NCBI GenBank assembly: GCA_964106645.2
Contig: OZ067040.1
DNA: 64,000 bases
Reading direction: 5' to 3' (one strand)
Source of the DNA: Podarcis pityusensis
Lineage: Eukaryota
Both the position numbers and the translations under genes were made by a program. This document shows positions 11,221 through 47,917 of this stretch, one piece after another (position 1 is the first letter of the stretch; the number at the start of each line of letters is the position of its first letter). The notes beneath the pieces were generated by a model. That model was not told the DNA's origin. It saw nothing but the letters and a program-made list of their open reading frames with translations, and searched no databases.

Positions 11221-11364
11221 NNNNNNNNNNNNNNNNNNNNNNNNNNNNNNNNNNNNNNNNNNNNNNNNNNNNNNNNNNNNNNNNNNNNNNNNNNNNNNNN
11301 NNNNNNNNNNNNNNNNNNNNNNNNNNNNNNNNNNNNNNNNNNNNNNNNNNNNNNNNNNNNNNNN
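11221..11364. other. Sequence gap (144 N) inside the MYT1L 3'UTR
   Basis: Run of N. Confidence 1.
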
Positions 11365-22343: not shown

Positions 22344-22607
<264 letters not shown>

Positions 22608-27708: not shown

Positions 27709-27771
27709 CTTCGATGTGAAGCATAATTTCCGGTAATATGCCCAGAGCCATCACAACCAGGTGTGGGACAC
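27709..27771 (-). CDS. MYT1L: MYT1L C2HC zinc-finger exon ([20 protein letters not shown])
   Basis: ttttag|G acceptor and AG|GTATGT donor; 63 nt, phase 2-2. Confidence 0.97.
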
Positions 27772-30700
27772 CTAAAAGAAACAAGAGAGTTGTTTGAGTA
27801 ACTTGTTTGGGAGACATAAAAGCCTACATCATCAGAAACCTTGGCATTTGCCCAGTTGTGCTTACAGTGGAAATTCCATAAAGCCTCTTTCACTGAACAT
27901 TTGCCAGAGATAAAAAAAAAAAACCCCTTCCAAAGGCCTATATAGTCAAGTATGATTTTTCCAATGGCCAACCAGATAGGAAGCCCACAAGCACGAAATG
28001 AGTGCAATAGCGTTCTCCTGCTTTTGTGTTGAAAATGCTATTAATCACAAGCATAAATGTGCTTGTTTCTAGGTCACCCAGTGCCAGTTCCAGGTTTGGG
28101 GTGGGAGGTGGTGTCTTTTGGACAATATTCTTTCTGTGAGTTCGCCTCCTTGTCTTTGCCATTGTTGCTTTTGTCCATTCACTTGCTTTTCCATGGGCAA
28201 ATCTGACCACCTACCCAAGGGAGATGACAAGGGTGTGTGTAGAGATTTATTACCCCACCTCATTCCTCTGTAAGGGGATGAGGGCAGGCAACAGTAAGGC
28301 AGATTAGCAGCAGAGACTCCAGGGTTTAGAGTTGAACTCCCTACTGGTTTGAGTTTCTTGGAAGATGCCTGATCATACCAGACCCTGCAATCCCCTCCCC
28401 AGCCATCAGCTCCTGGATATCTTCAGTATCAACAACAAATGACCCAAGTCTCTGAATTTGCAAACCCACAACAGGAAAAGGACAAGAACTGCACTGATGT
28501 TAGCGTAACAACGGCAACATTACATGCTAGTCGTAATATTTCGCAGGTAATTAATGTACATCGTCACAGCCAGGCAATGAATGATGTTGATTTAGCTAGG
28601 AAGATTTCTTCACCAGAGGAAATGTCCTTCTAGCAAGGCAGAAGAAAGCTAGGCAGGACAAAACAACAACAAAAAGTATACTGCCCTCTTGTGGGCAAAA
28701 GCCAAGAATTTTATTATTATTTTTTTTTACTTGCCTAATTACTTAAAAACATTGTCAGACTTACATAATTTATAGAAAGCTCAACTCCTAGTATCTTTAG
28801 GAATTCACCATTTTACAGCCTAGAGAGTTTTACCTCCAAAAAACAAAACCCCAAACAAATCCTAAACAGAAACATGTCTGAGTTCATTCAAATCCTGGCA
28901 ACTATCTAGTTTAATAACTTTTCTCTGGATTTCTAAGTCTACTCCGTTTTTCTGCTCTTCTTGTTAATCACAAATATTAAAGCTTGAAGGCAGCAAGTTC
29001 ATATAGCTGAGATTTTATTCCCCCCCCCAACCTAATGTGGCCCGTCCATTCTTCCTTCCTCTTCTCTCTCTCTCCCTCCCTCCCTCTCTTTCTCTCTCTC
29101 TTTACATATCCCACCCGTGTCAGGATACAAAAATAAAGTGGGCAAAGTACCCCTTTGCAAAGCCGCATGCAGCATTTGCTGAACAATGGAGGCGGGAGAA
29201 GGAGTTCACCGGACCCACAAAGTGGCATGACATTATTAGCTCAAGCCGTGTCAGTTGGGGCTTGTGTCAAAAGAAGTTAGGCTCTGCGACCGCTTCTCAC
29301 TTTCCCTGCCATGTCCTGTCGTAGTGTATAATGCCACTGTGCCATGTAACATGCCATCACAGGACAAAGCTACCCAGTGGGACAGTGATCTCCCTCACTT
29401 TTGGCAGGAAAAGTCCTGTAGGCCCGACTATAGCATGGTTGTCATGGCGATGCCACTGGTGTGACTGCTCTTTGCTTCTCCACCCCTCCTCCCGCAACAC
29501 ATTTTTATTATTTTTTTAGACTCTCATCTAGCACACATTTTCAGAATCAATGGATGATTTAATTATGGCTTTCCAGCTCTTTAAGGCTGTGGTTTACCCT
29601 CCAGTCAAGAGACTCTTTCTGTCTTTCTTTCTTTTTACATTAAACACACTTTTCAGAACTGGAAAATGCTTCAGTTAAATCTCGTTGTTTTTTTTCAAAT
29701 TCCAGGGCTGCCGTGCAATTCCATTTTGCAGTGTTCCTATGTTCTGCAGCACTGGGTGTAAACTTCTATGTAATTCAGAATTATCTCAGGGGTGTGTGTG
29801 TGTGTGTGTGTGTGTGAGATGTTTTAAAGATCCAAGCTTTCCCTCCACCAGACTAACCAGCAGCAATTCTGCCGAGTGGAACTTCCTTTGCTAACAAGCT
29901 GACAAATCTGAGACTGACCTAGAGGGCAACTTTTCATTAAGTAGCAAACTGCTCCCTTCTATAGTATTAAAAGGGAGGTAGGGGGAGGAAGAGATCACAT
30001 TCATTATCTCAGTTCACGACTCATTTATTAACTTGGTATTAGATTAACTAGATTACATTTCCCCCACAAATTTTATTTTCAGGAGAAAGAATGATAAGAT
30101 CAGTGATATGTACCCCCATTCATACAGGCACTGCTTCCAACAGCATTCTCCAGGGCTACTGACAGAATGAATTATGTTCTCCTCACCTCACTTTGGGCTG
30201 AGTTAAGAGATTGTGACAGTGGGAAAAGAGAGAATAAACCTATGAACTGAGGAAGTGGTCAACAGACAAGTCCTTTCAGAAGCACTTTATGGTAACATAT
30301 TGAGGATCCAAATCTGTAAGAATGATCTTGAAAGCACTGCTTGCTACAAAGGCATTTTAAACTGAAAGCCTTTCTAGGTTTTTATTTTTTTTAATTACTC
30401 AGAACTATGGAAAACTACTTATAATAATGAACTAATTAAGATGTGCCTGTGTTCACATGAAAACAATTTCTTGCTATTGTTTGCTGCACTGATGAATTGG
30501 TGAAGAAATGTTAACAAAATCCAAGTTAGTGCAAAAAAGGCAATAGGATGAAACTTTTAATAGTATATACCTATATTTTATGCAAATATCCCAGGATTGG
30601 CACACTGAAAAGAATACTGGGACCAATTTTTTTGATGTGCACCATCAGTAAACACAGGTAAAATGCTCAGGCACTGGATGGTTAGAAAAAGTAGAAAAAG

Positions 30701-33700
30701 TGGTAGAAAAAGTAGAACTGCAATGGGTTACCCACCCATCAGTGCCTTGACATTTAGACCCAGATGCTGTTGTTGGCCTCTGTCTGTTTCTAGAGACAAT
30801 GGAGTGCACCTCCAAGGGCAGAGTCAAAATGGAGAAAAGACTGGCCCCAAATAACCATCAAACCCAGAAAACAGGCAAACCCTGCAAACATAACCAGGGT
30901 GGGAAGCAACTGTTCTCCAAGAGGGCATTTTCAGGTAAGAGAAGATGGAGCTTGAAGGGACTCACTCTGTAAAAAGACAGTTATAGCCAAAACACATAGC
31001 AACTTCTCCTTTGACACACAATCTGCCACTCTTCCTCAAATACTCAAATGTGGTGTATGATTGACCTAAGACTCAATTTTTGCAGTTTGGAAGCCTAATA
31101 GCTCAGATAGTGGGATAAAAAAACGTTGCAAGTGCAGATTCACATCATTGTTAGAATAAGCCTCTGGCATGCATAATTGAATTGTCTCAACCTTTTTACT
31201 TTGCCTGGATTGCAGCTGTGGGGTTTTAGTTTAGTTTTGTTGTGAGTTTGTCCTGCAATAGCTCCACCAGAAGCTGAAATCACCACTAGCCAGGCAGCAT
31301 TCGCTGCAGAGCTGGGCTGAATTATGTCATACCCAAATTGTGATGTAGGCCTGTGGTGGTGGAACCTAGACATGACTTATGCAAAGACAAACAAACTGCA
31401 ATTCATGTCCCCCCCAAAATACAAGTGGCATTGGAGCTCAAGTAAACAGACTCTCCATAACTAACATGCAATGGCTGAAGACGGAGGGATCTCTGATGAG
31501 AGCTCCTGTGGTTCAAATGCAAAGGCTGAGTGCTCGAGAAGGAAGCTGTGGAAGCTTCCCAGCTGGAGGAGGAAGCAATATCAGCAGGCGAGCAAGGAGG
31601 AAGAGGCAATGTTGATATATTATCAACATTTCGATTCACTAGTATTTTAGAGATAGACGTAATATGAAAACAGAACTCACAGCACAATTAAAGTGGCAGT
31701 GCGGTGAGTTCTCTATACCTTATCTATGTTTCTAGCCTCAGACATACTAGAAGGGAAAACATAACGAGTGCTACTCAAGCAAACAACACATCTGCCCTGG
31801 GCCAGCACAAGACATTTTGGCACCTCAGGTGAACCACAAAATGGCATCCCCCTCCTTGCCAAGGAAGAAGGGGTAAGTGAAGATCTACATCAGGAACGAG
31901 GGGGCAATAAAGATCTACATCAGGATCTGGTGCCCCTGTGGATCCTGCCTCTTGAGGCAATTGCCTGACCTTGCCTCATATGTGGTTTGGCCCTACATCT
32001 TCCTCTCATTCCAATAACACTGTGGGTGATATGGCCATCAAACTTATAAAAGGCAAAAGGACCTTCTTAAAGAAGTGGGCATTCAGTGTGCCAGCTAATA
32101 AGTCATAGGGTGATGTGTACCAAATGTGTACCACGTAACCATACCTTAGTGTAGTGCTTTAGAACCATTGGTAAATCAAGGCAAATACAAAATGCATTGG
32201 AGTGGAGATTTTGAGGGGAAAGTCACAAAATGAGCTGGGATTTAGTAGAGGAAGATCACTGCTCTTGATCCCATTGAAGACATTGCACAATTTAGGCAAG
32301 AGTACTTTAATCCTGTTAAGGATTAAACACCATTCAGTAAGGTCACATCATGTCTTTTAAACGAAGTGACCAAGACATTTGAAACAGCAGCTTTGACTTG
32401 ATTTTGATCATACATGTAGGAGACCAGGGATGGAAATTATTCAGTAAGGAAAAAGGAAATAAGAAATATCGTCCTATCGCATGGTACTTGAGTGCCTCAC
32501 ATATAAGGATGGGGCTTTTGAAGCTGATCTAGAAGGTATTAGGAAGCCAAGTCACAGCCTTAAGGAGATGTGAGATGATCAAATCATCAAAAAGTGGGGA
32601 GGATTTTGTTGCAGGGATTCTGGACTGACCCAGAAGAAGGATAATGCCAACGAAAAAGCAACTGTAATAGCAAGGCAAGAAGATTACCAGGATATGGGCA
32701 AGGATTTTAGCAACAGGTAGAGAAAGCATGAATAGATTTTGCAGTTGTTACTGAGGGAAAGAAATGAAGAACTTTTCAATAGCCTGTGCTCAGAGGGGAG
32801 AATGAAAGACTGAACTGATGGTTCACAGAGACAAAAGATAATCATTGATTTTATCTGATATATAGATGGCGTATTAAGACTGTCAAATTCTCTAAGCAGA
32901 AAAAAGATAGGTAGTTCATTACCATAAAGTTGTATCAGCACATAATTTTTCTATAGATGTAAAGTTTAAGGGGAAAATAAGATGCTGAACCATAAACAAC
33001 TGAAAAGGTAAATAAAATATTTCTATTGCAATTTCTACAAACAGACAGTACTTTTCAAAGCTTTGCTTGGGTTGAAGACATTTTACATCATTCAAATAAG
33101 ATTGCATGCTTAGGGGTGTAGAAATAGGCTGCTGAATCAGCCATGCAGAGCAGAAGGAAAGCCAAAGGTTAAAACGGGAATCAATATTGAGATGAGGAAA
33201 TGAAAATGATTTGTGCAGCAGAAGGAAAGGGAAGGAACACCACTATGGAGTCAGGGAAAGCCCATATTCTGGTATGGCAGAATCCCACAAAACCATAATT
33301 AACACCATGGCTAGAAGACACAAGATGTACGGGGGTAAAGATCAGATGAATCACCACTAGCCCCAAATCAGGTCCACTGTCAGCTGAATCAGCATTACAG
33401 GAACCCCAGTTCTTTACCTGTATGTAACAATATGGATTGTTAGTTGCTAGGCAATGTCCTCAAAAAAGAAACCGTGGAAGACAAACTTTCTAAATAAATA
33501 AATATATTGCATTTATCAGTCACCTCACAACCATTGTTCTCTGGACTGACTTGGGAGAGATTCATCTCCTAGTCCCCCACTGTGAAAAAGTTAAGATGGC
33601 AAGTTCTGAACCAGTGGTTTCAAGATTTGATTTGTATGCTAGTTGTAGATTTGGTTGTCCACTAGTTATCTTGCTTAAGGCAATCATAAGGTGTAAAGAG

Positions 33701-33837
33701 TTTTGACAGAGTTTTGATGTGAGAAAGCAGGCAGTAAGTGGTTAAGAGCTTTTTCCCCATACTACTTCCCAGCCATACTACTTCTGTGGGTGATTTACGG
33801 GGAAAGTTAAAGCCTCATGTGCTCTTGATGCCATAAT

Positions 33838-34076
33838 GAGTTTGGATTTGATATCTCGCTTTATCACTACCCGAAGGAGTCTCAAAGCGGCTAACAATCT
33901 CCTTTCCCTTCCTCTCCCACAACAAACACTCTGCGAGGTGAGTGGGGCTGAGAGACTTCAGAGAAGTGTGACTAGCCCAAGGTCACCCAGCAGCTGCATG
34001 TGGAGGAGCGGAGACGCGAACCCGGTTCACCAGATTACGAGACTACCGCTCTTAACCACTACACCATGCTGGCTCT
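33838..34076 (-). mobile_element. tRNA-derived SINE with L2-like tail (different family from Sauria SINE)
   Basis: Minus strand starts agagccagcatggtgtagtggttaagagcgg...ccgggttcgcgtctcc (A and B boxes) and ends ttagccgctttgagactccttcgggtagtgataaagcg. Confidence 0.85.
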
Positions 34077-34389
34077 CAGCTAACAGGAATATAAAGGGGG
34101 GAGGGAGGGGGAGCCAGTAAAAATAGAGGGGAGGGGTGAGAGACTTGTGGGATGTGGAAGAGAAAAAGAGGGGCAATATTGACCTGTGATGATAGAGAAG
34201 AGAGACTAGGGAACCTTGTGGAATTAAGACAAAGGGAGCAGTTGCAGAACCAGGCGTTGTGCTTCTCAGTCCCTGACCAACCCCATAGAATTAAAAGACA
34301 ACTGAGACCGGTTTGGATCTTGACAGCTCCCCTTTTAAGGCATAGAAAATGAACAGATCCTGTAAAATAATAAACAAACAAACCTCCAT

Positions 34390-34550
34390 GTTTATGCCAC
34401 CGAACAGGGGTTCTTAAGGAGAAGGCTATTGTTTTCAAGCCCTGTTGTGGTCTTCCTGGGAGGTGACTGACTGAGCTCTGTAGGAAGAAGGATGTTTAAC
34501 CAAATCGACCATTGGTTTCCTCCAGTAGGGCTACTTTTATGTTCTTATGG
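34390..34550 (+). mobile_element. Old CR1-type 3' end fragment
   Basis: Ends in tccagtagggctacttttatgttcttatg, a CR1-like terminal repeat; degenerate. Confidence 0.5.
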
Positions 34551-35488
34551 GATTTCTTAATGTTTGAATGTGGTGGGACAATGGGAATCCATTTGTTTGC
34601 ACTTCTGCTCAGCTTTGTATGCAAATGCCAACTGGGCGGACGCAGCTTATTGCTGAGGGACTCTCAGGGCACTTCCTGACTGTTTCTATTTGCGAGAGGG
34701 ATTTTGTCACATACTGGCAAAACCAAGTTACACAAATACAGTTGATTGGGGGCGTATTATGCAACACACCAGCTTCCATTCGAAAGAGGCCCACTGTGAT
34801 AAGAAAAGTAATGGGGAAACAGTGTAAAGTGTGGGATAACACTTGCTTTGAAGCAACGTCACCTGCTCTCCCTGCAAACAAATCAGAATGAATGCTCAAT
34901 AAACAGGTTGTCTTTAAATCATGTCTTTAAAACATGATTCAGCAGAAGCCCACCTACTCCTTTGGTCCAACGCTGATTAGGATGTGCCACATCATTTCTT
35001 TGCTTCCGTTGGGCATCGTCTCTGGGCTCATCCATTCTTGCGACTAACTTGCGCTTTCTACTGTAGGCATGGATCCGAGGTATTTTTCATTTGCCCTGAA
35101 GCTTTCCCCAGGAAAAAACGCTGTTTACTGCTGAATTGGAACAAGTGTCAATCCGCAGAAAGCCTGACTGACGTTTGTTAAGACTTAGCAGTAAACGGCA
35201 GGTATTCCTGGGTAAAGTGGCAGGACAGACGAGAAAGCCCCCCAGACCTGTGCCTAGAAATCACAATCTGCATGGCAATCCTTAAGTGTTTTTACCTGAG
35301 GATTCTATCATTAACTTCCTTCTATCTACCCCCTCCTCAGCAGATGTACACAAATCTTTAGAGTATGTGCACAGATCTCCACAGTGGATATGCACAGATC
35401 TGTTGCAGGGGGCTGTGTACCTGAGTACATCCCCCCGTGCAGGAGTGTGCAGTGACTACATCTGCTTTTGGCACCCCTGCTACTGGCA

Positions 35489-35702
35489 TGCAAGTAGATA
35501 AATAGGTACCACTCTGGCGGGAAGGTAAACGGCGTTTCCGTGTGCTGCTCTGGTTCGCCAGAAGCGGCTTAGTCATGCTGGCCACATGACCCGGAAGCTG
35601 TACGCTGGCTCCCTTGGCCAATAAAGCGAGATGGGCGCCGCAACCCCAGAATTGGTCACAACTGGACCTAATGGTTAGGGGTCTCTTTACCTTTACCTTT
35701 AT
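35489..35702 (+). mobile_element. 5'-truncated Sauria SINE
   Basis: Core and tttacct tail; 10-bp TSD tactggcatg at 35481-35490 and 35703-35712. Confidence 0.9.
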
Positions 35703-37010
35703 TACTGGCATGAGACCCCTAGAGGGTTAGCCAAGGATGAATGTGGCCTCAATTTAAGAACTGGTTTGCCAACCCTGATTAAAATGAATGTGCCAGAAAA
35801 GTTACAAACATACAGAATTGCAGGAAGGGAAAGCTCCTCAACAGACATAGAATTATAGGTACTGCTATAGCGTGCTTATTCATGATGAATGGCATATCTC
35901 ACACAAGAGCACTTATCTTGAAAAGTGTTCTGAGAGAACTAGCTAAGACTCACTTCTAGGCTTCAAACTATTTTATTGGAGACTATCAGGGGGTAATGTA
36001 ATTGGGTTACCTATGAGCAACTGGTGTGCTAGTTTTGGTCAGGGCTTACAGAGGATGTTGCTCTATTTCTTCTCTTTTGCCCCCCAGAAACAGCCGCTCA
36101 GAATTTCCTGTTACAATCTCTTCTGGGCACAGAGGTGTTAGCTTTCGGGGGCGATGGACGGGGGGGGGGCGGACGCTGCATGCGCAATGTTCAAGAGGAG
36201 CTGGGGTGGAGCCAAACATGGCGACAGTGCAGCTTCAATGGCTGGTGGCTCCTGCCACTGTAACTGAATGCAGGCTGCTTTAACCCACATTCTCCTCAGT
36301 GGCAGGAGGAGGAGGAGCCAGGAACTGAAGTTGTGTCATGCTTGGCTCTGCACTCAGCCTCCTTCACCCTCTGATTTTTTGGGACACTGGAGAGGGGCTT
36401 GGAACTCTCTCAAAAAAATATTAGGGGAGACCAAAAGTGCTTGGCCCCCATGAGTTGGCGCCTCTCTCTGGGTAAGATTCCAGAATACCCTGTTGAGCAG
36501 ATCATGAGTTACCTGTTTGGAAATATGATTGAACATAATACTGCGAGGCCTGCAAATTTGATTGTGTAAAGGCCTAGAAAATTAGGAAGGCTACATGCCA
36601 AAACTGGGCCTTTTAGTGGCTTGCCAAGACCGTTTTTAAGTGTTAACTTGGGAAATGTTCCCTGTTATCTTCTGTTTTACACCAGTAATGTACATAATAT
36701 TGTTTTGTTATGGCCTGGATGGGGGTTTTTTGGTTGTTGTTTTTACAAATAAATTGATTATTGATAGGGTCTACTAATATTCCTAAGCACAAGTAACTTG
36801 GAAGAAAACAGCAATGAGTCTTATGGAAATATATTCTACTAAAATTAGTAAAACTGATGGTAAACAAAATGGAATAAATCTATAGCATAGAGAGTACTTG
36901 AAAAGATTCATTGGCATTATGCACATATGTGCAGGATGGCCACAATTAGGCATTTGCAGTGTAATCCTGGACATGTTTACTCCTAAGTAAGTCCAACTAT
37001 ATTCATTCAG

Positions 37011-37193
37011 ATTCAGGTCGGTAGCCATTCTGGTCTGACATAGTCAAAACAAATTTAAAAAATTGTCCAGTAGCACCTTAGAGACCAACTAAGTTTCTTC
37101 TGGGTATAAGCTTTCCTGTGCATGCACACGAAACCTTATACCCAGAACAAACTTAGCTGGTCTCTAAGGTGCTACTGGGCAATTTTTTTAATT
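37011..37193. mobile_element. Penelope-like inverted fragment
   Basis: ccagtagcaccttagagaccaactaagttt...cttagctggtctctaaggtgctactgg palindrome flanked by a 13-bp direct repeat tatattcattcag. Family name from recall of squamate Penelope termini. Confidence 0.7.
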
Positions 37194-40100
37194 TATATTC
37201 ATTCAGGTTTACCCTCAGGTAAGGTGCTTTGGAATGAACCCTAAGCTTGATACTTGAGACAAGCAGATCAGCAAATATATTTACAACAAAAAGAGATATT
37301 AACTTGACTAGATCATACAATTCATGTTATTTATTAAATAATTTAGAAATGAGTTTTCTATGATTAAAATTATTACCGACATACTAAACCAAACATGATG
37401 TTTTGTAAGAAACTGTAAGAAAATTATGAAAAATTATAAGATTAACAGGTTACATATATTAATAAAATGTCATTAATTGAATTGATTTGATTTAGGTTCC
37501 CATTGTGAATCCCATTGATGCCATTACTTCTGAGTTATTAGGTCTACATATTTATGTTTTATTGTTTAATGAGGTGGGGCACTAATTAGATTTATCTTCA
37601 GATGTATAAGTACAGTGGGATTCCTGATTGAACATCATTTTCCATGGATATATTCTACTTGGATATCTATTGGGATCTGTGTCTCAACTTAGCATACCTA
37701 TTTGTGTGTATACTAAAGAAACATTGCACTGGTACATTAGGGTATGAGCTGTACTGACCTGTAGCTGATTCTATGTTGATAGGAGCATGGGTATTTGGAT
37801 ACTGGCAAATGGCTTAGACTCTATGCTTCATGAGGATATAGTGATCTTGGCTTTGTAATACTGTATCTGACTGTGACACTATAGTCTCAGTCTGGAATAT
37901 TTATAATGCTGAGAGATTGAGAGGGTGACTTTTCATTCTGCTTAAACTACAAAATCTGGAATGAGATCCCAGTGAGACGCTTTGAGTAAGCCCCAAATGA
38001 AGCAGGGCTTTGTTTACAGCAATTTCTATTTAAAGCCAAGTTTAATCACAACATGACAATCCAACCTTATCCATTTTATGCAAGCCCCACTAAATTAAAT
38101 TAAATTTACTCTGAAGAAAGTGTACATAGGATTGTAGTCAAAGTAAATAAAGGTGTCCGTTTGAGGGCACCATGTAAAAACTGAATAAGTTTGCAAAGTT
38201 TTAAAGGAAAATAGCAAGTTAATTAATGCTGCAACCCTATGTATATTCTTGGAGTACATCCTACTGAGGTTACTTTTGTGTAAACCTGTGTAGAACTACT
38301 CTGTAGCTCTTGCTGGCTTTCAATGTGATCACCTTTCGAGATGAAATCTTAATTATGAAGTTCTTGGAAACTACAGCCACTTCAAACATGACATTTTTGC
38401 TACACAATCAGTATGGTGTATGGGACAATAGTTAATTTTGATATAATTATATGAGTTCAGTATCTCCTATATGTTGGTATCTGGACTATAGTTTCTCTGT
38501 GCAATGAAGTTACATAGGAGTATGCAACTCTAATCGTCTCTTTATACCACCTATGCAGAGACAAGGGCAAATGGTACCCCAACATAATGCAGCTGGGCCA
38601 GAAGCCTAGTCTACTAGGGTACTGTGTGGGCACCACTGTCATGTGTGAACCAGCCATAGTACTGGTATGCTGTACTGGGATCTGGGCAGGTGGTGATTGC
38701 TTTTAGATATTTCTGCTTATAATCCCACGGCCTAAATAATAGATCAGTTATACTTCTGAATTGCAAAAGTTGTTACAAAACCCCTTGCAATTTTTTTTAA
38801 AATTATTTCATTTACAGGTATTGAAATTTTCAAACAATTGCCAAACAACCGAAACAAAAATAGAGTATTCCATAAATCCCCCATAGACTCCCCCCCTCCC
38901 CTTTGTGGGTCCTTATGTTAATATTTTACCTCCTGCATCTTCTCTATTAATCATTCCAATCCTACTAATAATTTTAATTGCTCGCAATTTTTGAGGCATC
39001 TTAATATCACAGTAATAATAACCCTATTTATGGGGTTAGGTGGGTTGGTAAAGCTCATTGCAGGACTTGGATGGGGATCAACAGTGTTCGTAACATTGGT
39101 ATACACACAGATTGGTAGAGGGGGCATTTGCTTTTTCTGGCCACACGACAGAACCTTCATGTTCAACCTGAAGCTTATGCAGGCTCTGTTCAGAGTTACA
39201 GATGAATACAGGAAGGTCAGTAGGGAAAGGCCAGTGAGTTCAATCACACTCCATCTGTCCATGCATTCATACCCATAGATATGGCATCAAACAGGGACTA
39301 AACTAATTACAGTACAGTTATATTTTGTAGAGTGGAAACAAATGCTGAATTGTCGAGTGGGTGGGTGGGAACATACTGCGTACTTTAACCTGCAAACTGC
39401 AGTGGTACCGTGTTACTGCACTAGTTCAGTGCCTTGGCCCAAATGTTGATATAATCCACACTCCAATTATTCATAGGATAATTTCTTTGCTTGTTGAACC
39501 ACACACCCATAAAATTGTCCGCAACTGGGTTTTAGAACTGAAGGCGTTCTACTAGACTATTTAGCAGGCTGACAATGGCAGAGCCATCAAGGTGGAACCA
39601 CCTACTAACAGAAGGCATCATATGCCAGGAAACCTCCTCTTTCACTGGACTAATATTCATTATTAATTCAGGGCCATCAGACTCCATGTATTTGAAAAAC
39701 CGAAAAACAAGAGTTTAAAAACATCTCTCTCACCTGATATACTGAGAAATTCCAAAATTCAGCCTGGCAAATTCTTATAGGCTGGTGACATCACCAGTCT
39801 GGATCAATGCACAAGCAAGATCCAGCATGAGAGGGGTTTGGGGTTTGTTTTTGAGAAACTTTTAGATCATTTATCATCTTCCCAAGAGTCTTCTCCCAAA
39901 TCAGAATTAATGGCTTCTGGAATCTGCCACCAGAATGCATTTCCCTAACTTAGTGATTTTGTGAAACTCAGCTCAGTAGGACTTGTGCGCAAAGTAATTC
40001 CTTTCTGTAACGATCAACCACATAGTTTTAGTCTTTCTTCATCCCCCTTCTTGGCTGCTGACTTTTACATGCATTTGAAATAACCTCAACACAGCACTAA

Positions 40101-41062
40101 ATCTGTGGGCCACCAGACTTCTGTGGCCCTACATGGGCCCTATGTGGCAGGGCTGCAGCCAGCAATTGAGATCCACAAAGCAACCTGACAAATATGAACA
40201 AGGCATTTCCCATTAGTCTCTTTTTCTTATATAACTCCCAGCACCAACCGCAGGAAGGGCTGATGACAGCTAAATCAATATATGTAGATTTCTTTTGTTG
40301 CTGAAGAATAAAATGATAGGTATCAAAGTACTTTCTGGCACTTTGGATTTGATTAACTGAACAGTCTCATTGCAGGAAAAAGGGCAATAATAGTATTTAG
40401 CTAGTTATCAAGTTAAACCAATAGTACATGGTGGATAAATGTATAATACCCTTTGATTAGAAATTAATCAAGTGCCCTGCCTTTTATCTAACCTGTGCAA
40501 TTGGGAAAGGAAGCAGGGCATTAGGCTAGATGTACTCTAGCTTAGATACATGCGTGTGAAGCATGCAACAAATACTTCAATGGACTTTAAAGGTGTGTTC
40601 TGCCACATATGCACAAGTTGAAAAATAAAAACTACACTTAGCAAGGAGGGTAGTTCTCCACCAAATGAAAGGTGAGCCATATTTTATTCTTATTCAATCA
40701 AACTGTTCTTTACATAATATCCTATCATATTTTGCCCTCTCAAACCTCTAACTCTAATAAAATCCATTCACCCAGCAATACATTTCTGTGAAAAATCTGC
40801 CTGGCCTGTTGGATTTATTCTGTCTCATTATGTGCTATCATGCACCCTATATTAAACATTATCAAATGTTTTGTAGCATATGGACAATAAAATCCACGAA
40901 GCAGCTTGGCTATAGAGTTCATATATATTATATGCATCAATATTCTCTCTGTTTCTCTCTCTCTCACACACACTATATACAGGAATGGTTGCTTCTGAGT
41001 ACCAGATGTTGTTATGTATATGCAGTTATATCACTGCATCATGGGCTCTGTAATCTGCAATT

Positions 41063-41343
41063 CTACACTGAGGTCCAGCGCCGAGGGCCTTCTGACGGTT
41101 CCCTCCCTGCAAGAAGTGAGGTTACAGGGAACCAGGCAGAGGGCCTTCTCGGTAGTGGCGCCTGCCCTGTGGAACACCCTCCCTTCAGATGTCAAGGAAA
41201 TAAAACAACTATCTGACTTTTAGAAGACATCTGAAGGTAGCCCTGTTTAGGGAAGTTTTAATGTTTGATGTTTTATTCTGTTTTTAATCTGTTGGGAGCC
41301 ACCCAGAGTGGCTGGGGAACCCAGCCAGATAGGGGTATAAATA

Positions 41344-41378
<35 letters not shown>
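41063..41378 (+). mobile_element. L2 LINE 3' end with (TAT)n tail
   Basis: Same family as 8121-8589 (EGLLTVPSLQEVRLQGTRQRAFSVVAPALWN). Confidence 0.9.
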
Positions 41379-41539
41379 GCCAAGGCCTTTTTAATGTTTA
41401 ATATAGGAAGCATGGCAGAATGTTAGGGACTAGTCATAATCTGATAGAAACGAAATAGATACCAGTAAATCCCTCACACCATCAGCAGATGGTAATTCTG
41501 AGCCTACTTAGATGGTTGTTTTCAGAGGCTGATGCTTGG

Positions 41540-42400
41540 GGATTATCATTTGGCCTTGTGGGGCCTTCAGTGCAGGGTTCCTCAATTCCTCCTGTCATGC
41601 TATTTAGCATCTACCTGAAACCACTGAGTGGGGTCATCTGGAATTTTAGAGTATGTTGTCAGCAATGACGCATAGCTCTACTTCTGCTTTACATCTGTAG
41701 GTTGGGAAGCAGATGTGCTGGACTGAATAAACTGAAGCTCAGTCCAGAGAAGACTGAGGTGCTGTTAGTGGACAGTACCATATGAATGGATAGGAGGAGG
41801 CCTGCTCTTGATGGAATTACATGCCCTCCGAAGGAATGGGTACGCAGCTTGGGGTACTTCTGGATCCACTGCTGTCATTTGAGGCTAAGCTGGCCTCGGT
41901 GATGTGGCATGCCTTCCATCAGCTTCAGTTGGTGGCCCAGTTGCATCCTTATCTGGACAGGAATAGTCTAACTACTGTTGTCTATGCTCTGGTAACCTCC
42001 AGATTAGATTACTGCAATGCATAATATGTAGGGCTTCCTCTGAAGTTCAGAAACTTCAGCTGATGCAGAATTCAGCTGCCATGTTGCTCACCGTGGAAAG
42101 ATGGTTTGAGCAAATGACACCAATCCTGGCCCGACTACACTAGCTGCCAATTAAGTTTCCAGGCCTAATCTAAGTGCTGGCTTTGACCTATAACGCCTTA
42201 AACAGGTCAGGACTGCAATACCTCAAGGACTGCCTCTCCCGATATGAACTGACCAAGACCCTGTGCTCATCATCTGAGGTCCTTCTTCATGTGTCCTCTC
42301 CACAAGAGGCCCAGAGGGTGGCAACATGAGAATAGGCCTTTTCTGCAGTGACTTCCCATTTGTGGAATGCTCTCCCCAGGAAGCCCTGGTGTCTTTATAT
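41540..42400 (+). mobile_element. Degenerate L2 ORF2 (RT C-terminal) fragment
   Basis: LGVLLDPLLSFEA...LVTSRLDYCNA and downstream L2 motifs, with stops and frameshifts. Confidence 0.85.
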
Positions 42401-42924
42401 GTCTTTATTTATCTTCCTCTGTAACCAGGCCTTTGACCTTCTGTGGCCTTTTAGAAATAGGATGTTTTTGATGTATTTCTCTTTCCTTTTGGTTTTAATG
42501 TATCTACTGTATGTGAGTTTTATTGTCTATTTGTTTGACTACAATCTGGAGAAAACACAAATGACTGTTTGCGCCGACTGAGAGCTAAAGAGCGGTTTCC
42601 TCCTGGTGGAAAGCTGTGGGACAAGAGGAACTGTGGATTAGCCTTCTGTGAACTATTAACAAGCTTGAGCTGTACTTTTATTGGCATAGATGCATTTCAT
42701 CCACTCAACCTGTGGAAGGGAAGGGCCCTTACTTGGCGAAATGAAAGAGACAAGCACTTATTCTAGTTTTCAGGGCTGCATTTGGTGCTTCTGCCTTCCT
42801 GACAGAACATTAGGGAAGGAAAGGGAAGCATGGAGACTTTCCTTAGCAGGGGTTCCTGTATGTATGTATGTATGTATGTATGTGCGTATGTTTGTATGTC
42901 TGGCAGGAAGCTGGAAGAGAAGGA

Positions 42925-43016
42925 TACAGTGGGAAAGTGGCAAGGGGGAGTGCCTGGCATGCTCTGGTCCATGGGGTCACGAAGAGTCGGACACAACTAA
43001 ATGACTAAACAACAAC
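42925..43016 (+). mobile_element. RTE/BovB-type 3' end
   Basis: gcctggcatgctctggtccatggggtcacgaagagtcggacacaactaaatgactaaacaacaac is the characteristic BovB terminus. Confidence 0.85.
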
Positions 43017-43847
43017 TGCTTTGCTTCTCTAAGCTTGATGCCTTTCACTTGTCTCATGGGCACCCGAGTTCCCAAGGAACAAGCCTGCCACCAAGTTTCT
43101 AGTTTTTGTCTTCTGATATTTTTGGCCCTGCAGCTGTCTCCCAGTTCCACTGGCAAAGCGGCACAAATGCTCCTGTTTTGGAATGCAAGGACAACCAATG
43201 CCAGACTTTGGAATATTTTCAGTTGTGGAGCTTTTTTACTGAAGTCCATGCACTGGTCATCATGCCTGAAAGGGTGGTTTTTTTGTTCTTACTTCCTTTA
43301 TGTGCATGGCCCTGATAATTCTTCCACATCAACATCTTCAGAATGGTGGTGAAGGTGATAATACTCTGGCAATAATCTGATTGGCCAGGAAATACACCTT
43401 GGAATACCCAGAGTTTCTCTTGTTGCTGCGGCAAAATGAAGAATGGGACCTTTTGCATGATCCCCTGGTGCTTGATGCTGACTTCAGGGCTTTCCCTTCC
43501 TTCCTGTCACCCTCCCTGGGGGCTTTTCTATGACTATGTAGGATGGATTCCAGAAGAGAGGAGGAGGGAGGCAGGTGGGGCGAACCAGGTCTTGCTCCAG
43601 CTGGGATAGAAATGAGAGGAGTGGGAAGATTTGTTCCTGCCTGGTAGTTTTAATTAGGGCCCCTCAAGATGACCTATTAATTGAGCATTCTTCCCAAATA
43701 GCTTGCACAATGCTTACATGGTGGTTAAACTGCGTCTTGTCTTTGTTGAGCATTCACGCTGATTTGTTTACAGGGTGATTATATGAAAATGAGCATTGTC
43801 CTGCATTCATCTCATTTCCTTACAGAGTGTTTATGTGTTTTCCTGTA

Positions 43848-44159
43848 TAAACCACTGAACCTCTTGGGCTTGCTGATCAGAAGGTCGGCGGTTTTATCAG
43901 AAGGTCGGCGGTTCAAAAGCACACCAATGCAAGTAGATAAATAGGTACTGCTGTGGCAGGAAGGTAAACAGCATTTCCGTGCGCTCTGGCTTCCGTCATG
44001 GTGTTCCATTGCGCCAGAAGCGGTTTAGTCATGCTGGCCACATGACCCGGAAAGCTGTCTGTGGACAAACACCGGCTCCCTCAGTCTGAAGCAAGATGAG
44101 CACTGCACTCCATACTTGCCTTTGACTGGATTTAACCATCCAGGGATCCTTTACCTTTA
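43848..44159 (+). mobile_element. Sauria SINE with internal duplication and deletion
   Basis: Homologous to 18354-18671; atcagaaggtcggcggtt is present twice. Confidence 0.88.
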
Positions 44160-46676
44160 TTTGTTCATCCCACATTTTTCAATGCATTACCCTGTCACTT
44201 CTCAAGCTGCAAAATGACTTTTTTTTTTAAAGTGGATTTGGTGTGTCAGGGTGACAGAGCATATCAATCCATTTTAAATGCACAAATTTAACATACTGGT
44301 ATATGACTGACTCCTGACATTCCGGAGGTGCTCTAAGTTATGGTGCTGATATTTTGCTGAAAACTGCAGAGAAGCTGACAGTACAGTCTGTCAGTTGATC
44401 AGTCTCATCATTTTCAATACAGATCTGATTGCTGATCAGATGTGGCAATGAGATCTTTATAATTTCAGTATGGAAGCTTACTGCAAGGAGAACAGTAGAC
44501 ATCCAGGAGGCAATATCCATCTGGTAATGACAGAGGAATCAAAGAAGGAGTTTGAGATTGTCTCTTCCTAATAAATCTTCAGAATGAAGGAGTAGGTGGT
44601 TACCTTCAGGTAATAAACCAGACAGGCCAAAAAGTGCATCTTGGAATACCCAGAGCTTCTCTTGTTTCTGCTACAAATGGAAGAATAAGATTTTCTTATC
44701 TTTTTCATGATGCTCCTTTCTGAAAGTGACAGCATTCCCCACTGGAGCAGGAATCTAAAAGTGACAAGTTGAAGATGCCCAAATATAGGTTCAAAGAGCT
44801 CCACACACTCATCAGGGAAGCACCAGTTCTGCTACAACACTCAGAAATATGTGGTAACTGGGCTGAGACAAGAAAGCCACCTCTCTCACTGATGAGGTTA
44901 GAGGACTGAGTCTATCTCATGGACATCTTAAACATCTCATTTGCAAGTGCTTCAAAGCCTGGACTCCCTCCAATGTTGCCAGTCCTTTAAAAAATCAACT
45001 GCATATTGGATCTTTGTTCTGCAAAAGTGACGGCATCCTTAGCTCTAATGTCCTTTAGGCACTTCTCCGTGGAATTAATATACTTTCCCAGAGTTTTGAT
45101 AAAAACCATTTGTGTGAAATGGTTTAAAAGCTATTTGAACTGTTTTATTATACAGTACATACTGACTGTTCAGAGGACTCATGGGCTAAACACTGTTGTT
45201 TATGACGTGAATAAAGTCACAGGGAAAGCAAAAACAGATGATACTGATGTATCCTTGATTTGCTCTTTGTTTTAAGAAAAATGTCTCTCACGTGGGACCA
45301 TCTCTGTTTGATAGCAGTTGTGATGGTGCTTGGAATTCTTTCTGTTGCCAAAAAGATCTGATTAAACTTCAAAGGGACACCTGAACTTATTTATACCAAT
45401 TCAAGTGTGTTCTCATTTATAAATACTATTATGAAGAGTTGAATGCAACTCTGATTTTATCCATGACATCTTCCAAAGCCAGATGCTCTTTAGGTCTTCA
45501 GTACTCACATAAAAATCCTTCTTGGAAAGTTCTCTCTGGCTGCTTCTGTACTAGCAAATTTCTTTGACATCATTCATTTATCTTGTTTTTATAGGCCAGA
45601 GATATCCAATATAGTGATGAGAGGGGGGTCTTGTCGTCTGGGCCAACCGGGACCTCCATACATACTGCTCAGGCTTGCCCCCTAGAGAAGTACTTTGGTG
45701 CTGCTAACGCAACAAAAACAATGTGGGAGGCAGCAATTATGAGTTACCAATTACCACAGCCACAGCAGGTGCTGTGATTCTCCATTGTTTTGACTTCACC
45801 CCCAGAGGAACACTCCATTGTCTCTCAAGACAGACGGATGCCAACAAAATGCTTCAACTACATCCAAGCAATAAAGAACCTGGGGACGGCCTTGACCCTT
45901 CTTGATCCTGTTGCCATGTGTCTCCTTCTGATCTGTGTCCTTTGGTGTACTCTAATTCCTTCCAAATGTCAGATTTATTAGATTATGAACTCCACTGAAG
46001 GATCTGTCCCCAACCCCACTCAGCTTTTTGGAATCTGGCGCCAGGTGCCCGCAGTTGAGATATGAAGTGTTATTCTAATCTAGCACTATGCTATCCTAAT
46101 TTCAAATCTTTCACTGAAAACAGGACACTAAGGAACTTAAAATATAAACGAACATTAAGGTTTGCATTTCCTACTTCCACCAAGTAAGTTTATTTGTCCT
46201 ACAGGGAAATAAAAGCGACCTGAAAATCTCATGTATTGAAAGAGCCCCTGTTTTTATCTGCTCAACAACTGCTCAATATTTATTCAAATGTTCTGCATCA
46301 GAAGGCCAGTAGTTCAATTTCAAAAACATTGTTTTAATGTTATTGTAATTCTAAGGTCTTCACCACTTCCTCTTTAAAACACAGCATCACAGATGCTCTC
46401 CTACGTCATGGATGAACAGCATGGCATCCATAAGGGCTATGAATCTCTGCCTAGCCTGTGCCTGCTGTGACATCACAGCAATCAGCAACCTGTGACAGGA
46501 CAACGTCCACAGCCTGTGGATCATAGTCTGTGTTAGTGTTTGATATCCACATGCCGTAAGAAGCTCAGTAATGTATCAGTAGCTTTGTTCAGTGTCCTCT
46601 TATATTCCGAAACTTCTGTTTGCAACTGCTAAGAAAACAATTTAAAAAGAAAAAGAGAGGCATTAATTATATCTTA

Positions 46677-46784
<108 letters not shown>

Positions 46785-47240
46785 TTAAAATAAGACCTTC
46801 CAAACAAACACAACGTTAAAAAAAAAAATTAATAAAAAAAAATATTGTAATGCAGAGAAGCGATGGGGCGGGCAAGTGCTGCAATACTGAATTTTGTAAC
46901 ACAAGTTAACCCTCTGAATATATTTAGGTATAAAGCTTTATTGCTGGTGTTATCAGATTTTTCCCCCTAATAAGTTTGTAGGTATAACAACAAAAAAAGC
47001 ATTAGTGATCCATGGGTTAACTATCTGAAAAAGTTTTAGGAAATTTAAAAATGTTTTAGTAGTAGTTTTAAAAGAAAAAAGACGTTTATACAACACACAA
47101 ATCAGCATGCTCTTAAGATCAACATTTATTACTCAAAGGGTTAACACATAGTTCAACATTTTTACTTTGACAGCATTGTTGAGGTAAGCTGAAAACAATA
47201 AATTGAAAAGACAGAATCCACCATGAAAAAAATGAAGTCA

Positions 47241-47422
47241 NNNNNNNNNNNNNNNNNNNNNNNNNNNNNNNNNNNNNNNNNNNNNNNNNNNNNNNNNNNN
47301 NNNNNNNNNNNNNNNNNNNNNNNNNNNNNNNNNNNNNNNNNNNNNNNNNNNNNNNNNNNNNNNNNNNNNNNNNNNNNNNNNNNNNNNNNNNNNNNNNNNN
47401 NNNNNNNNNNNNNNNNNNNNNN
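47241..47422. other. Sequence gap (182 N) in a MYT1L intron
   Basis: Run of N. Confidence 1.
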
Positions 47423-47686
47423 CCTACCGAAAAAGCTGCAAAATGAACAGAATTCAATGAAAATGGCGTCTCAGTACGATATAGCATCATTAAGGACAAG
47501 CAGAGACCATGTTAGCTTCATCACTTAAACTTAACTGACAGTCTGAAACATTTATATGCTGCAAATGCTGCATGCTCATACTGCAAGGCATATATGTATT
47601 TGTTTATTCAAGTCAGACAACGAAAGAGAGAGAGAGAGAAAGGTTATAAGAGGAGTAAAAAATAATTTCACCTCACATTATGCTTA

Positions 47687-47917
<231 letters not shown>

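What the first reader, a model, noticed from the sequence alone, without database searches (positions are those of the whole stretch)
47241..47440. Probable hidden zinc-finger cassette exon of MYT1L inside the N gap, with tandem in-frame acceptors
Seen: on the minus strand the sequence entering the gap reads ctgttcattttgCAG|CTTTTTCGGTAG|G-NNN, a pyrimidine tract with two AG acceptors 12 nt apart (exon start 47435 or 47423). Spliced to the upstream phase-2 donor (AC|) they give ...DLIT- or ...DLITFFGR- without a stop. The next visible exon (46746) starts with an orphan finger tail, LSGCP, whose CPxPGCxGxGH...HR head is missing. The finger-head exon at 27709-27771 begins with the same tag|G and is 63 nt, which fits in the 182-nt gap. 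GCATG (RBFOX-type) motifs flank the gap at 47571-47575 and 47106-47110. Established: the paralog MYT1 has a complete finger at this position (7 fingers), whereas canonical mammalian MYT1L has 6. Inference: this lizard keeps an alternatively spliced seventh finger that would change the C-terminal DNA-binding array from 3 to 4 fingers.
Basis: partly seen in the sequence, partly recalled or inferred. Interest (0 to 1): 0.75.

Follow-up and report, generated by a model that had tools for sequence, protein, structure and literature searches.

The report
Optional seventh zinc finger in MYT1L
The unreadable stretch in this lizard's MYT1L gene, a neuronal gene regulator, likely hides a small and probably optional exon that would add a seventh zinc finger; public gene models already list this exon from sharks to many mammals, so it is not a lizard novelty.

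Summary
The flanks are as described; the N letters were not read. Public MYT1L proteins answer most of the question. A 21-residue C2HC finger head sits between DLIT and LSGCP in 186 of 478 labelled proteins, from sharks to mammals, including 6 of 6 Podarcis muralis records; 276 skip it, and 36 of 153 taxa show both forms. MYT1 and ST18 of this genome carry a 63-nt exon of the same phase at this position. So a 63-nt exon starting at 47423 very likely lies under the N and is already annotated. Inclusion rebuilds a double finger like MyT1 F4-F5 (PDB 2MF8). Not supported: the FFGR acceptor (0 of 578 proteins), RBFOX control (AGCATG, chance P=0.26) and a lizard-specific retention. Skipping in lizards is unproven, as no RNA reads were laid. 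Of residual interest: no inclusion in 35 murid or 7 haplorhine records, and Gly-to-Arg in all 73 laurasiatherian inclusion records. Ten paper searches found no description. The scan had not noted this before.

The parts
47688..47809 (-). Upstream MYT1L coding exon (end of the MYT1 domain, ...KKDLIT), phase-2 donor AC|gtaag
   Evidence: sequence; 100% identical to P. muralis and Pogona records
47424..47465 (-). Acceptor region: pyrimidine tract, CAG (G at 47436) and TAG (G at 47424); two branch-point-like yTnAy motifs, A at 47458 (22 nt before the CAG) and A at 47444 (8 nt before the CAG, 20 nt before the TAG)
   Evidence: which branch point is used is inferred, untested
47361..47423 (-). Predicted 63-nt phase-2/phase-2 cassette exon for a C2HC finger head; only its first base (G, 47423) is visible, the end at 47361 is inferred from the length in orthologues and paralogues
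   Evidence: inference (no finger head in the visible part of the 941-nt intron)
46678..46746 (-). Downstream exon: finger tail LSGCP plus linker [18 protein letters not shown]
   Evidence: sequence
27709..27771 (-). Head exon of the next finger (63 nt, tag|G...AG|gt), the partner of the predicted finger in the double-finger unit
22347..22566 (-). Exon with the last two finger heads of the C-terminal array
47571..47575 (-). GCATG (AGCATG); at chance level, not counted as a regulatory element
47106..47110 (-). GCATG (AGCATG); at chance level, not counted as a regulatory element

Best explanation
The N stretch likely covers the ancestral 63-nt MYT1L exon, predicted to start at 47423 after the TAG acceptor, that would encode the head of a C2HC zinc finger and complete it with the LSGCP tail of the next exon. 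The exon has the same phase on both sides, so it can be left out without a frameshift. Inclusion gives a seven-finger protein whose C-terminal array has four fingers, with a first pair built like MyT1 fingers 4-5; skipping gives the textbook six-finger protein with an orphan tail. The exon predates the MYT1/MYT1L/ST18 split (inferred from the same phase, length and place in both paralogues), and gene models show both forms from sharks to mammals, so it most likely works as an old splicing switch that adds or removes one major-groove finger (inferred; binding effect untested). The upstream CAG is most likely a cryptic AG lying too close to the second branch-point-like motif to be used much (inferred).
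For: Orthologue records: 186 inclusion, 276 skip, 14 incomplete, 2 other among 478 labelled of 578 proteins; 36 taxa both forms, 40 inclusion only, 67 skip only, 10 no call. P. muralis 6 of 6, Pogona 4 of 4, Python 1 of 1 include it. The window's exons match P. muralis P0019 at 100% in 7 of 10 exon hits, the others with mismatches at exon edges, and the only piece of this part of P0019 without its own place in the visible window is the cassette; no finger head in the visible intron even at E<=10. MYT1 (G000:C6:7028205-7028267) and ST18 (G000:C7:40087663-40087725) have a 63-nt head exon ending AG|gt, 187 and 601 nt before the tail exon; the predicted MYT1L spacing is 614 nt. The visible G at 47423 completes AC|G = Thr, as orthologues need. 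The inclusion form aligns without gaps to MyT1 F4-F5, PDB 2MF8, E 2.3e-47; Pfam zf-C2HC counts 7 stretches in tenrec and ferret inclusion forms and 6 in mouse.
Against: The exon's letters were not read in this genome. All isoform evidence is from automatic gene models, not reads: no reads or contigs were laid from four runs. The three squamate skip records (Gekko kuhli, Phrynocephalus, Phrynosoma) are single GenBank predictions and no squamate species held shows both forms, so the exon may be near-constitutive in lizards. The sample is biased: one search was aimed at inclusion forms, only 120 hits per search and 15 members per cluster are listed, and isoforms of one species are not independent. 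Functional weight may be small: a fragment with only the two central fingers works like full-length MYT1L, and patient missense changes cluster in the central fingers (PMC9307810, passages).
Confidence: 0.8

Rival explanations
1. The exon is there but is constitutive, or nearly so, in lizards; lizard MYT1L is simply a seven-finger protein like MYT1, and skip forms in reptile gene models are projected from the human and mouse proteins.
For: 11 of 14 callable squamate records include it and all three skip records are single gene predictions; P. muralis 6 of 6.
Against: Both forms are annotated within one species in 36 taxa on both sides of squamates: sharks, gar, bichirs, arowana, eel, emu, pigeon, Dromiciops, tenrec. 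Only 4 of at least 23 numbered Pogona isoforms were seen. The unusual acceptor, with a CAG 12 nt upstream, fits a weak site; none of 9 other acceptors checked has an AG nearer than 25 nt.
Confidence: 0.12
2. Both acceptors are used, giving a third isoform with FFGR between DLIT and the finger (+75 nt).
For: The CAG has a good pyrimidine tract and a yTnAy motif 22 nt upstream; the 12 nt are in frame and free of stops.
Against: 0 of 578 proteins held, P. muralis included, have 1-10 extra residues before the head. An in-frame, stop-free 12-mer needs little luck (about 1 in 3 for frame). No DNA of other species was seen, so the CAG may be confined to lacertids and this test is indirect.
Confidence: 0.15
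3. The exon has decayed or been lost in this lineage, and the N hides only non-coding intron; the protein has six fingers as in mouse.
For: Loss or silence looks possible in other lineages: 0 of 35 murid and 0 of 7 haplorhine records include it; divergent heads occur in salmonids and eel.
Against: P. muralis, identical in the visible exons, has it in 6 of 6 records; an acceptor with the right next base stands right at the edge of the N; the spacing matches ST18.
Confidence: 0.05

Closest known systems
Annotated MYT1L inclusion isoforms (e.g. UniRef100_A0A670IZJ1 Podarcis muralis; XP_078245182.1 Pogona; XP_045150167.1 tenrec; XP_013975828.1 dog; XP_015213621.1 gar)
   Same: Same place, same 21-residue insertion between DLIT and LSGCP.
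   Different: Nothing known to differ, except the upstream CAG of this window, for which no record shows use. These are automatic gene models; I found no paper on them.
MYT1 finger 4 (F4-F5 pair, PDB 2MF8) and the first C-terminal finger of ST18
   Same: 63-nt phase-2 head exon before an 'S(L/V)SGCPLADK' exon in this genome; gapless alignment of the inclusion form to 2MF8; PMC5597252 (passages) describes 2MF8 as MyT1 fingers 4 and 5 on DNA.
   Different: MYT1L has skip forms on record. Whether MYT1 or ST18 ever skip this exon was not tested, because selected for inclusion.
Canonical six-finger MYT1L/NZF-1/Png-1 of human, mouse and rat (1+2+3 fingers; PMC9307810 passages; PMC10742566 passages)
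   Same: Equals the skip form, with the orphan LSGCP tail (P0072, P0074).
   Different: Lacks the finger head; the papers seen mention no seven-finger MYT1L.
6ZF/7ZF isoforms of Myt1 (Myt1a/Myt1b; PMC3139087 passages)
   Same: A family precedent for isoforms that differ by one finger.
   Different: There the passage points to a separate promoter and start for the seven-finger form (that the extra finger is the N-terminal one is recalled); here an internal cassette changes the C-terminal array.

Membership tests
MYT1L orthologue | MYT1 domain, C2HC fingers and coiled coil, closest to MYT1L and with MYT1 and ST18 elsewhere in the genome | tested here: met
   exons map to P. muralis MYT1L; two paralogues on C6 and C7
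C2HC (CCHHC) zinc finger, Pfam PF01530 | C-P-X-P-G-C-X-G-X-G-H-X7-H-R-X4-C (consensus quoted in PMC10742566) in the window's own sequence | tested here: inconclusive
   Only the tail (LSGCP) and the first base of the head exon are visible; the head lies under N.
C2HC (CCHHC) zinc finger, Pfam PF01530 | Same consensus in orthologue inclusion forms | tested here: met
   Met in P. muralis and most taxa; laurasiatherians and catshark have Arg for the consensus Gly but still score as a finger.
C2HC (CCHHC) zinc finger, Pfam PF01530 | Binds zinc and AAGTT-type DNA | not testable with these tools
   Inferred from likeness to MyT1 F4; the single-sequence model was of no use (pLDDT 43).
Frame-preserving cassette exon | Length divisible by 3, same phase on both sides | tested here: met
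   Flanking exons join in frame; 21 residues in orthologues; 63 nt in paralogues. The donor in this window is not visible.
Frame-preserving cassette exon | Both inclusion and skipping in one species | tested here: inconclusive
   Met at gene-model level in 36 of 153 taxa, in no squamate; no reads laid.
RBFOX-regulated exon | (T)GCATG enriched near the exon, above chance | tested here: not met
   No TGCATG in the visible intron; two AGCATG, P=0.26. The N part and conservation across species could not be checked.
Tandem alternative 3' splice site | Both AGs used in transcripts | tested here: inconclusive
   0 of 578 proteins carry the extension; no junction reads.

The most novel reading that the evidence does not exclude
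MYT1L carries a splicing switch kept since the origin of jawed vertebrates that adds or removes a MyT1-F4-like finger in its C-terminal array. The 'six-finger' textbook picture comes from the two lineages in which it was studied, murid rodents and simian primates, which would have silenced the exon independently, while Laurasiatheria fixed a Gly-to-Arg change at an otherwise invariant finger position. Mouse and human would then be the exceptions for a major neurodevelopmental gene.
Probability: 0.35. Interest if true: 0.55.

Novelty: already known. Interest (0 to 1): 0.3.

Why it matters
As a feature of this genome it is an exon that RefSeq and Ensembl-type models already list for Podarcis muralis and many other vertebrates. 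It matters modestly because the papers seen treat MYT1L, a neurodevelopmental disease gene and neuronal reprogramming factor, as a six-finger protein. If the seven-finger form is real and common outside mouse and human, it offers a natural test of what one more finger does to DNA recognition by this family, and of why the exon is changed (Gly-to-Arg) or missing in some mammals. The impact is capped by evidence that the central finger pair carries most of the function (PMC9307810).

Tried and rejected
RNA: no RNA holder on record was listed for the stretch; three contig runs guessed to be RNA and 12% of one raw RNA run gave 0 laid records on 47423-47900. The tool says this can be false, so it is no evidence either way and junction counts remain open. 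AlphaFold on P0043 without an alignment: mean pLDDT 43.4, not used. The 50%-cluster search did not run because its queue was full, so invertebrate and lamprey relatives were not surveyed. A search aimed at simian clusters and a cluster look-up brought no full-length human protein; human rests on 2 partial records (P0101, P0187). RBFOX reading rejected. The 'highly conserved novel exon' of human MYT1L in liver (PMC9380957, passages and S3 Data row) is 324 nt long and first in its transcript, so it is not this 63-nt internal exon. A mouse islet Myt1l cassette event (PMC8395343, passages) is not identified there. The mammalian alternative end after SSQELK has no tblastn hit in the window. A-to-I recoding of the Arg codon back to Gly was considered; one search gave one unrelated listing and no DNA was on hand, so it stays a guess; a CpG transition is a simpler guess, also untested. 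Gamsjaeger 2013 and Mall 2017 were not held and are known here only through citing passages.

Full report
Observation. The window holds the 3' half of MYT1L on the minus strand: P. muralis protein P0019 maps exon by exon from 60507 to 11649. The letters under the N were not read, so everything about the exon itself is inference.

What orthologues show. A search with the upstream exon gave 326 proteins, 120 listed; 36 of these have a complete 21-residue finger head between DLIT and LSGCP and two more have a cut one. Two more searches and three cluster look-ups raised the set to 578 proteins. I labelled 478 by species from the printed names; the other 100 are MYT1 paralogues or unnamed records and were left out of the table. 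Result: 186 inclusion, 276 skip, 14 incomplete, 2 other; of 153 taxa (some lumped by genus) 36 show both forms, 40 inclusion only, 67 skip only, 10 no call. Inclusion is on record in cartilaginous fishes (7 of 11 taxa), ray-finned fishes (8 of 9), squamates (3 of 6 callable), turtles and crocodilians (3 of 5 callable), birds (14 of 21 callable), marsupials (4 of 5), tenrec, Laurasiatheria (29 of 53), rabbit, non-murid rodents (5 of 11) and slow loris. The peptide is identical from zebra shark to P. muralis to rabbit, which points to purifying selection (inference). These are automatic gene models, one search was aimed at inclusion forms, and lists are cut at 120 hits or 15 members, so the counts show presence, not frequency.

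What this genome shows. The only part of this region of P0019 with no place of its own in the visible window is the cassette, and a relaxed search of the visible part of the 941-nt intron finds no finger head. MYT1 on C6 and ST18 on C7 (names from likeness to named proteins and PDB 2CS8) each have a 63-nt exon, one base plus 20 codons plus AG|gt, 187 and 601 nt before their 'S(L/V)SGCPLADK' exon. A 63-nt exon from 47423 would end at 47361, inside the N, 614 nt before 46746. The visible G completes the Thr codon that orthologues need. I put the chance that an intact exon lies there at about 0.93.

How it most likely works. Shown: the flanking exons join in frame with or without 63 nt; the inclusion form aligns without gaps to the MyT1 F4-F5 pair of PDB 2MF8, described as a DNA-bound double finger in PMC5597252 (passages); Pfam counts seven fingers in inclusion forms and six in mouse. 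Inferred: inclusion turns a 3-finger C-terminal array into 4 and restores a MyT1-like double-finger unit, which would raise affinity or lengthen the site read; skipping leaves an orphan tail. Against a large effect: the 200-623 fragment with the central pair acts like the full protein, and patient missense changes cluster centrally (PMC9307810, passages). Whether this lizard skips the exon is open: P. muralis 6 of 6, Pogona 4 of 4 and Python 1 of 1 records include it, the three squamate skip records are single predictions, and four runs gave no laid reads.

Tandem acceptor and RBFOX. The CAG 12 nt upstream is real and in frame, and none of nine other acceptors has an AG closer than 25 nt. But no protein among 578 has extra residues before the head. 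Two branch-point-like motifs lie 22 nt before the CAG and 20 nt before the TAG; with the second, the CAG is only 8 nt away, a distance at which AGs are usually passed over (recalled knowledge). I read the CAG as a cryptic site; minor use is not excluded. The GCATG motifs are AGCATG and at chance level (P=0.26); the label 'RBFOX motif = TGCATG' is recalled.

Lineage pattern. All 73 laurasiatherian inclusion records (29 taxa), and one catshark record, have Arg in place of the Gly of CPxPGC; that Gly was present in 2214 of 2214 other fingers in the 438 proteins then held (many are near-duplicates). No inclusion was seen in 35 murid records (11 taxa, with the X1 isoforms of Acomys, Arvicanthis, Mus pahari and Rattus rattus) or in 7 haplorhine records (4 taxa; human only 2 partial proteins). 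This is suggestive only: X1 isoforms also skip in some species whose relatives include the exon (Ursus arctos, Mustela nigripes, Octodon), and no full-length human isoform set was seen, so a human inclusion form is not excluded.

What is in print. Ten searches combined MYT1L with seven zinc fingers, cassette exon, isoform, exon skipping, long-read, RNA editing and Rbfox; none listed a paper on this exon. I read passages of PMC9307810 and PMC10742566 (six fingers), PMC3139087 (6ZF/7ZF Myt1), PMC5597252, PMC8395343, PMC9380957 (plus supplement files 1-12 searched in part, 16 and 33) and bioRxiv 2024.11.28.625692 (one passage; its supplements were not seen and may list human MYT1L isoforms). Subscription papers are mostly outside the library, so absence from print is not established.

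Verdict. Novelty: already known at the level of gene models, not found in the papers searched. Interest 0.3; the comparative story (old switch, change in Laurasiatheria, possible loss in mouse and simians) has probability about 0.35 and would deserve about 0.55.

Noticed in passing
orthologue proteins, e.g. P0093, P0201, P0233: Gly-to-Arg at the conserved CPxPGC position in all 73 laurasiatherian inclusion records and, apparently independently, in catshark; pig also has Asn-to-Thr and beaver Ala-to-Val.
   Followed up: partly
orthologue proteins, Muridae and Haplorhini: No inclusion in 35 murid and 7 haplorhine records; possible independent loss in the two lineages that set the six-finger picture.
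   Followed up: partly
window 27709-27771: The next finger-head exon is also 63 nt and symmetric; 4 of 456 records skip it (two tenrec, one salmon, one skate).
   Followed up: partly
window intron 27772-46677: 44 of 456 records end or diverge after SSQELK; many mammalian ones share an alternative end of about 20 residues, which has no tblastn hit in this window.
   Followed up: partly
window 11221-11364: The second N stretch lies about 280 nt past the last codon (11649), so in the likely 3' UTR; no coding exon of P0019 is missing there.
   Followed up: no
P0235, P0237 and cluster members: Divergent cassette heads in eel myt1la and salmon copies (several changes), perhaps relaxed selection after genome duplication.
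   Followed up: no
G000:C6:7003001-7068000 and G000:C7:40060000-40102000: MYT1 and ST18 paralogues with the same exon layout as MYT1L over the C-terminal finger array.
   Followed up: yes
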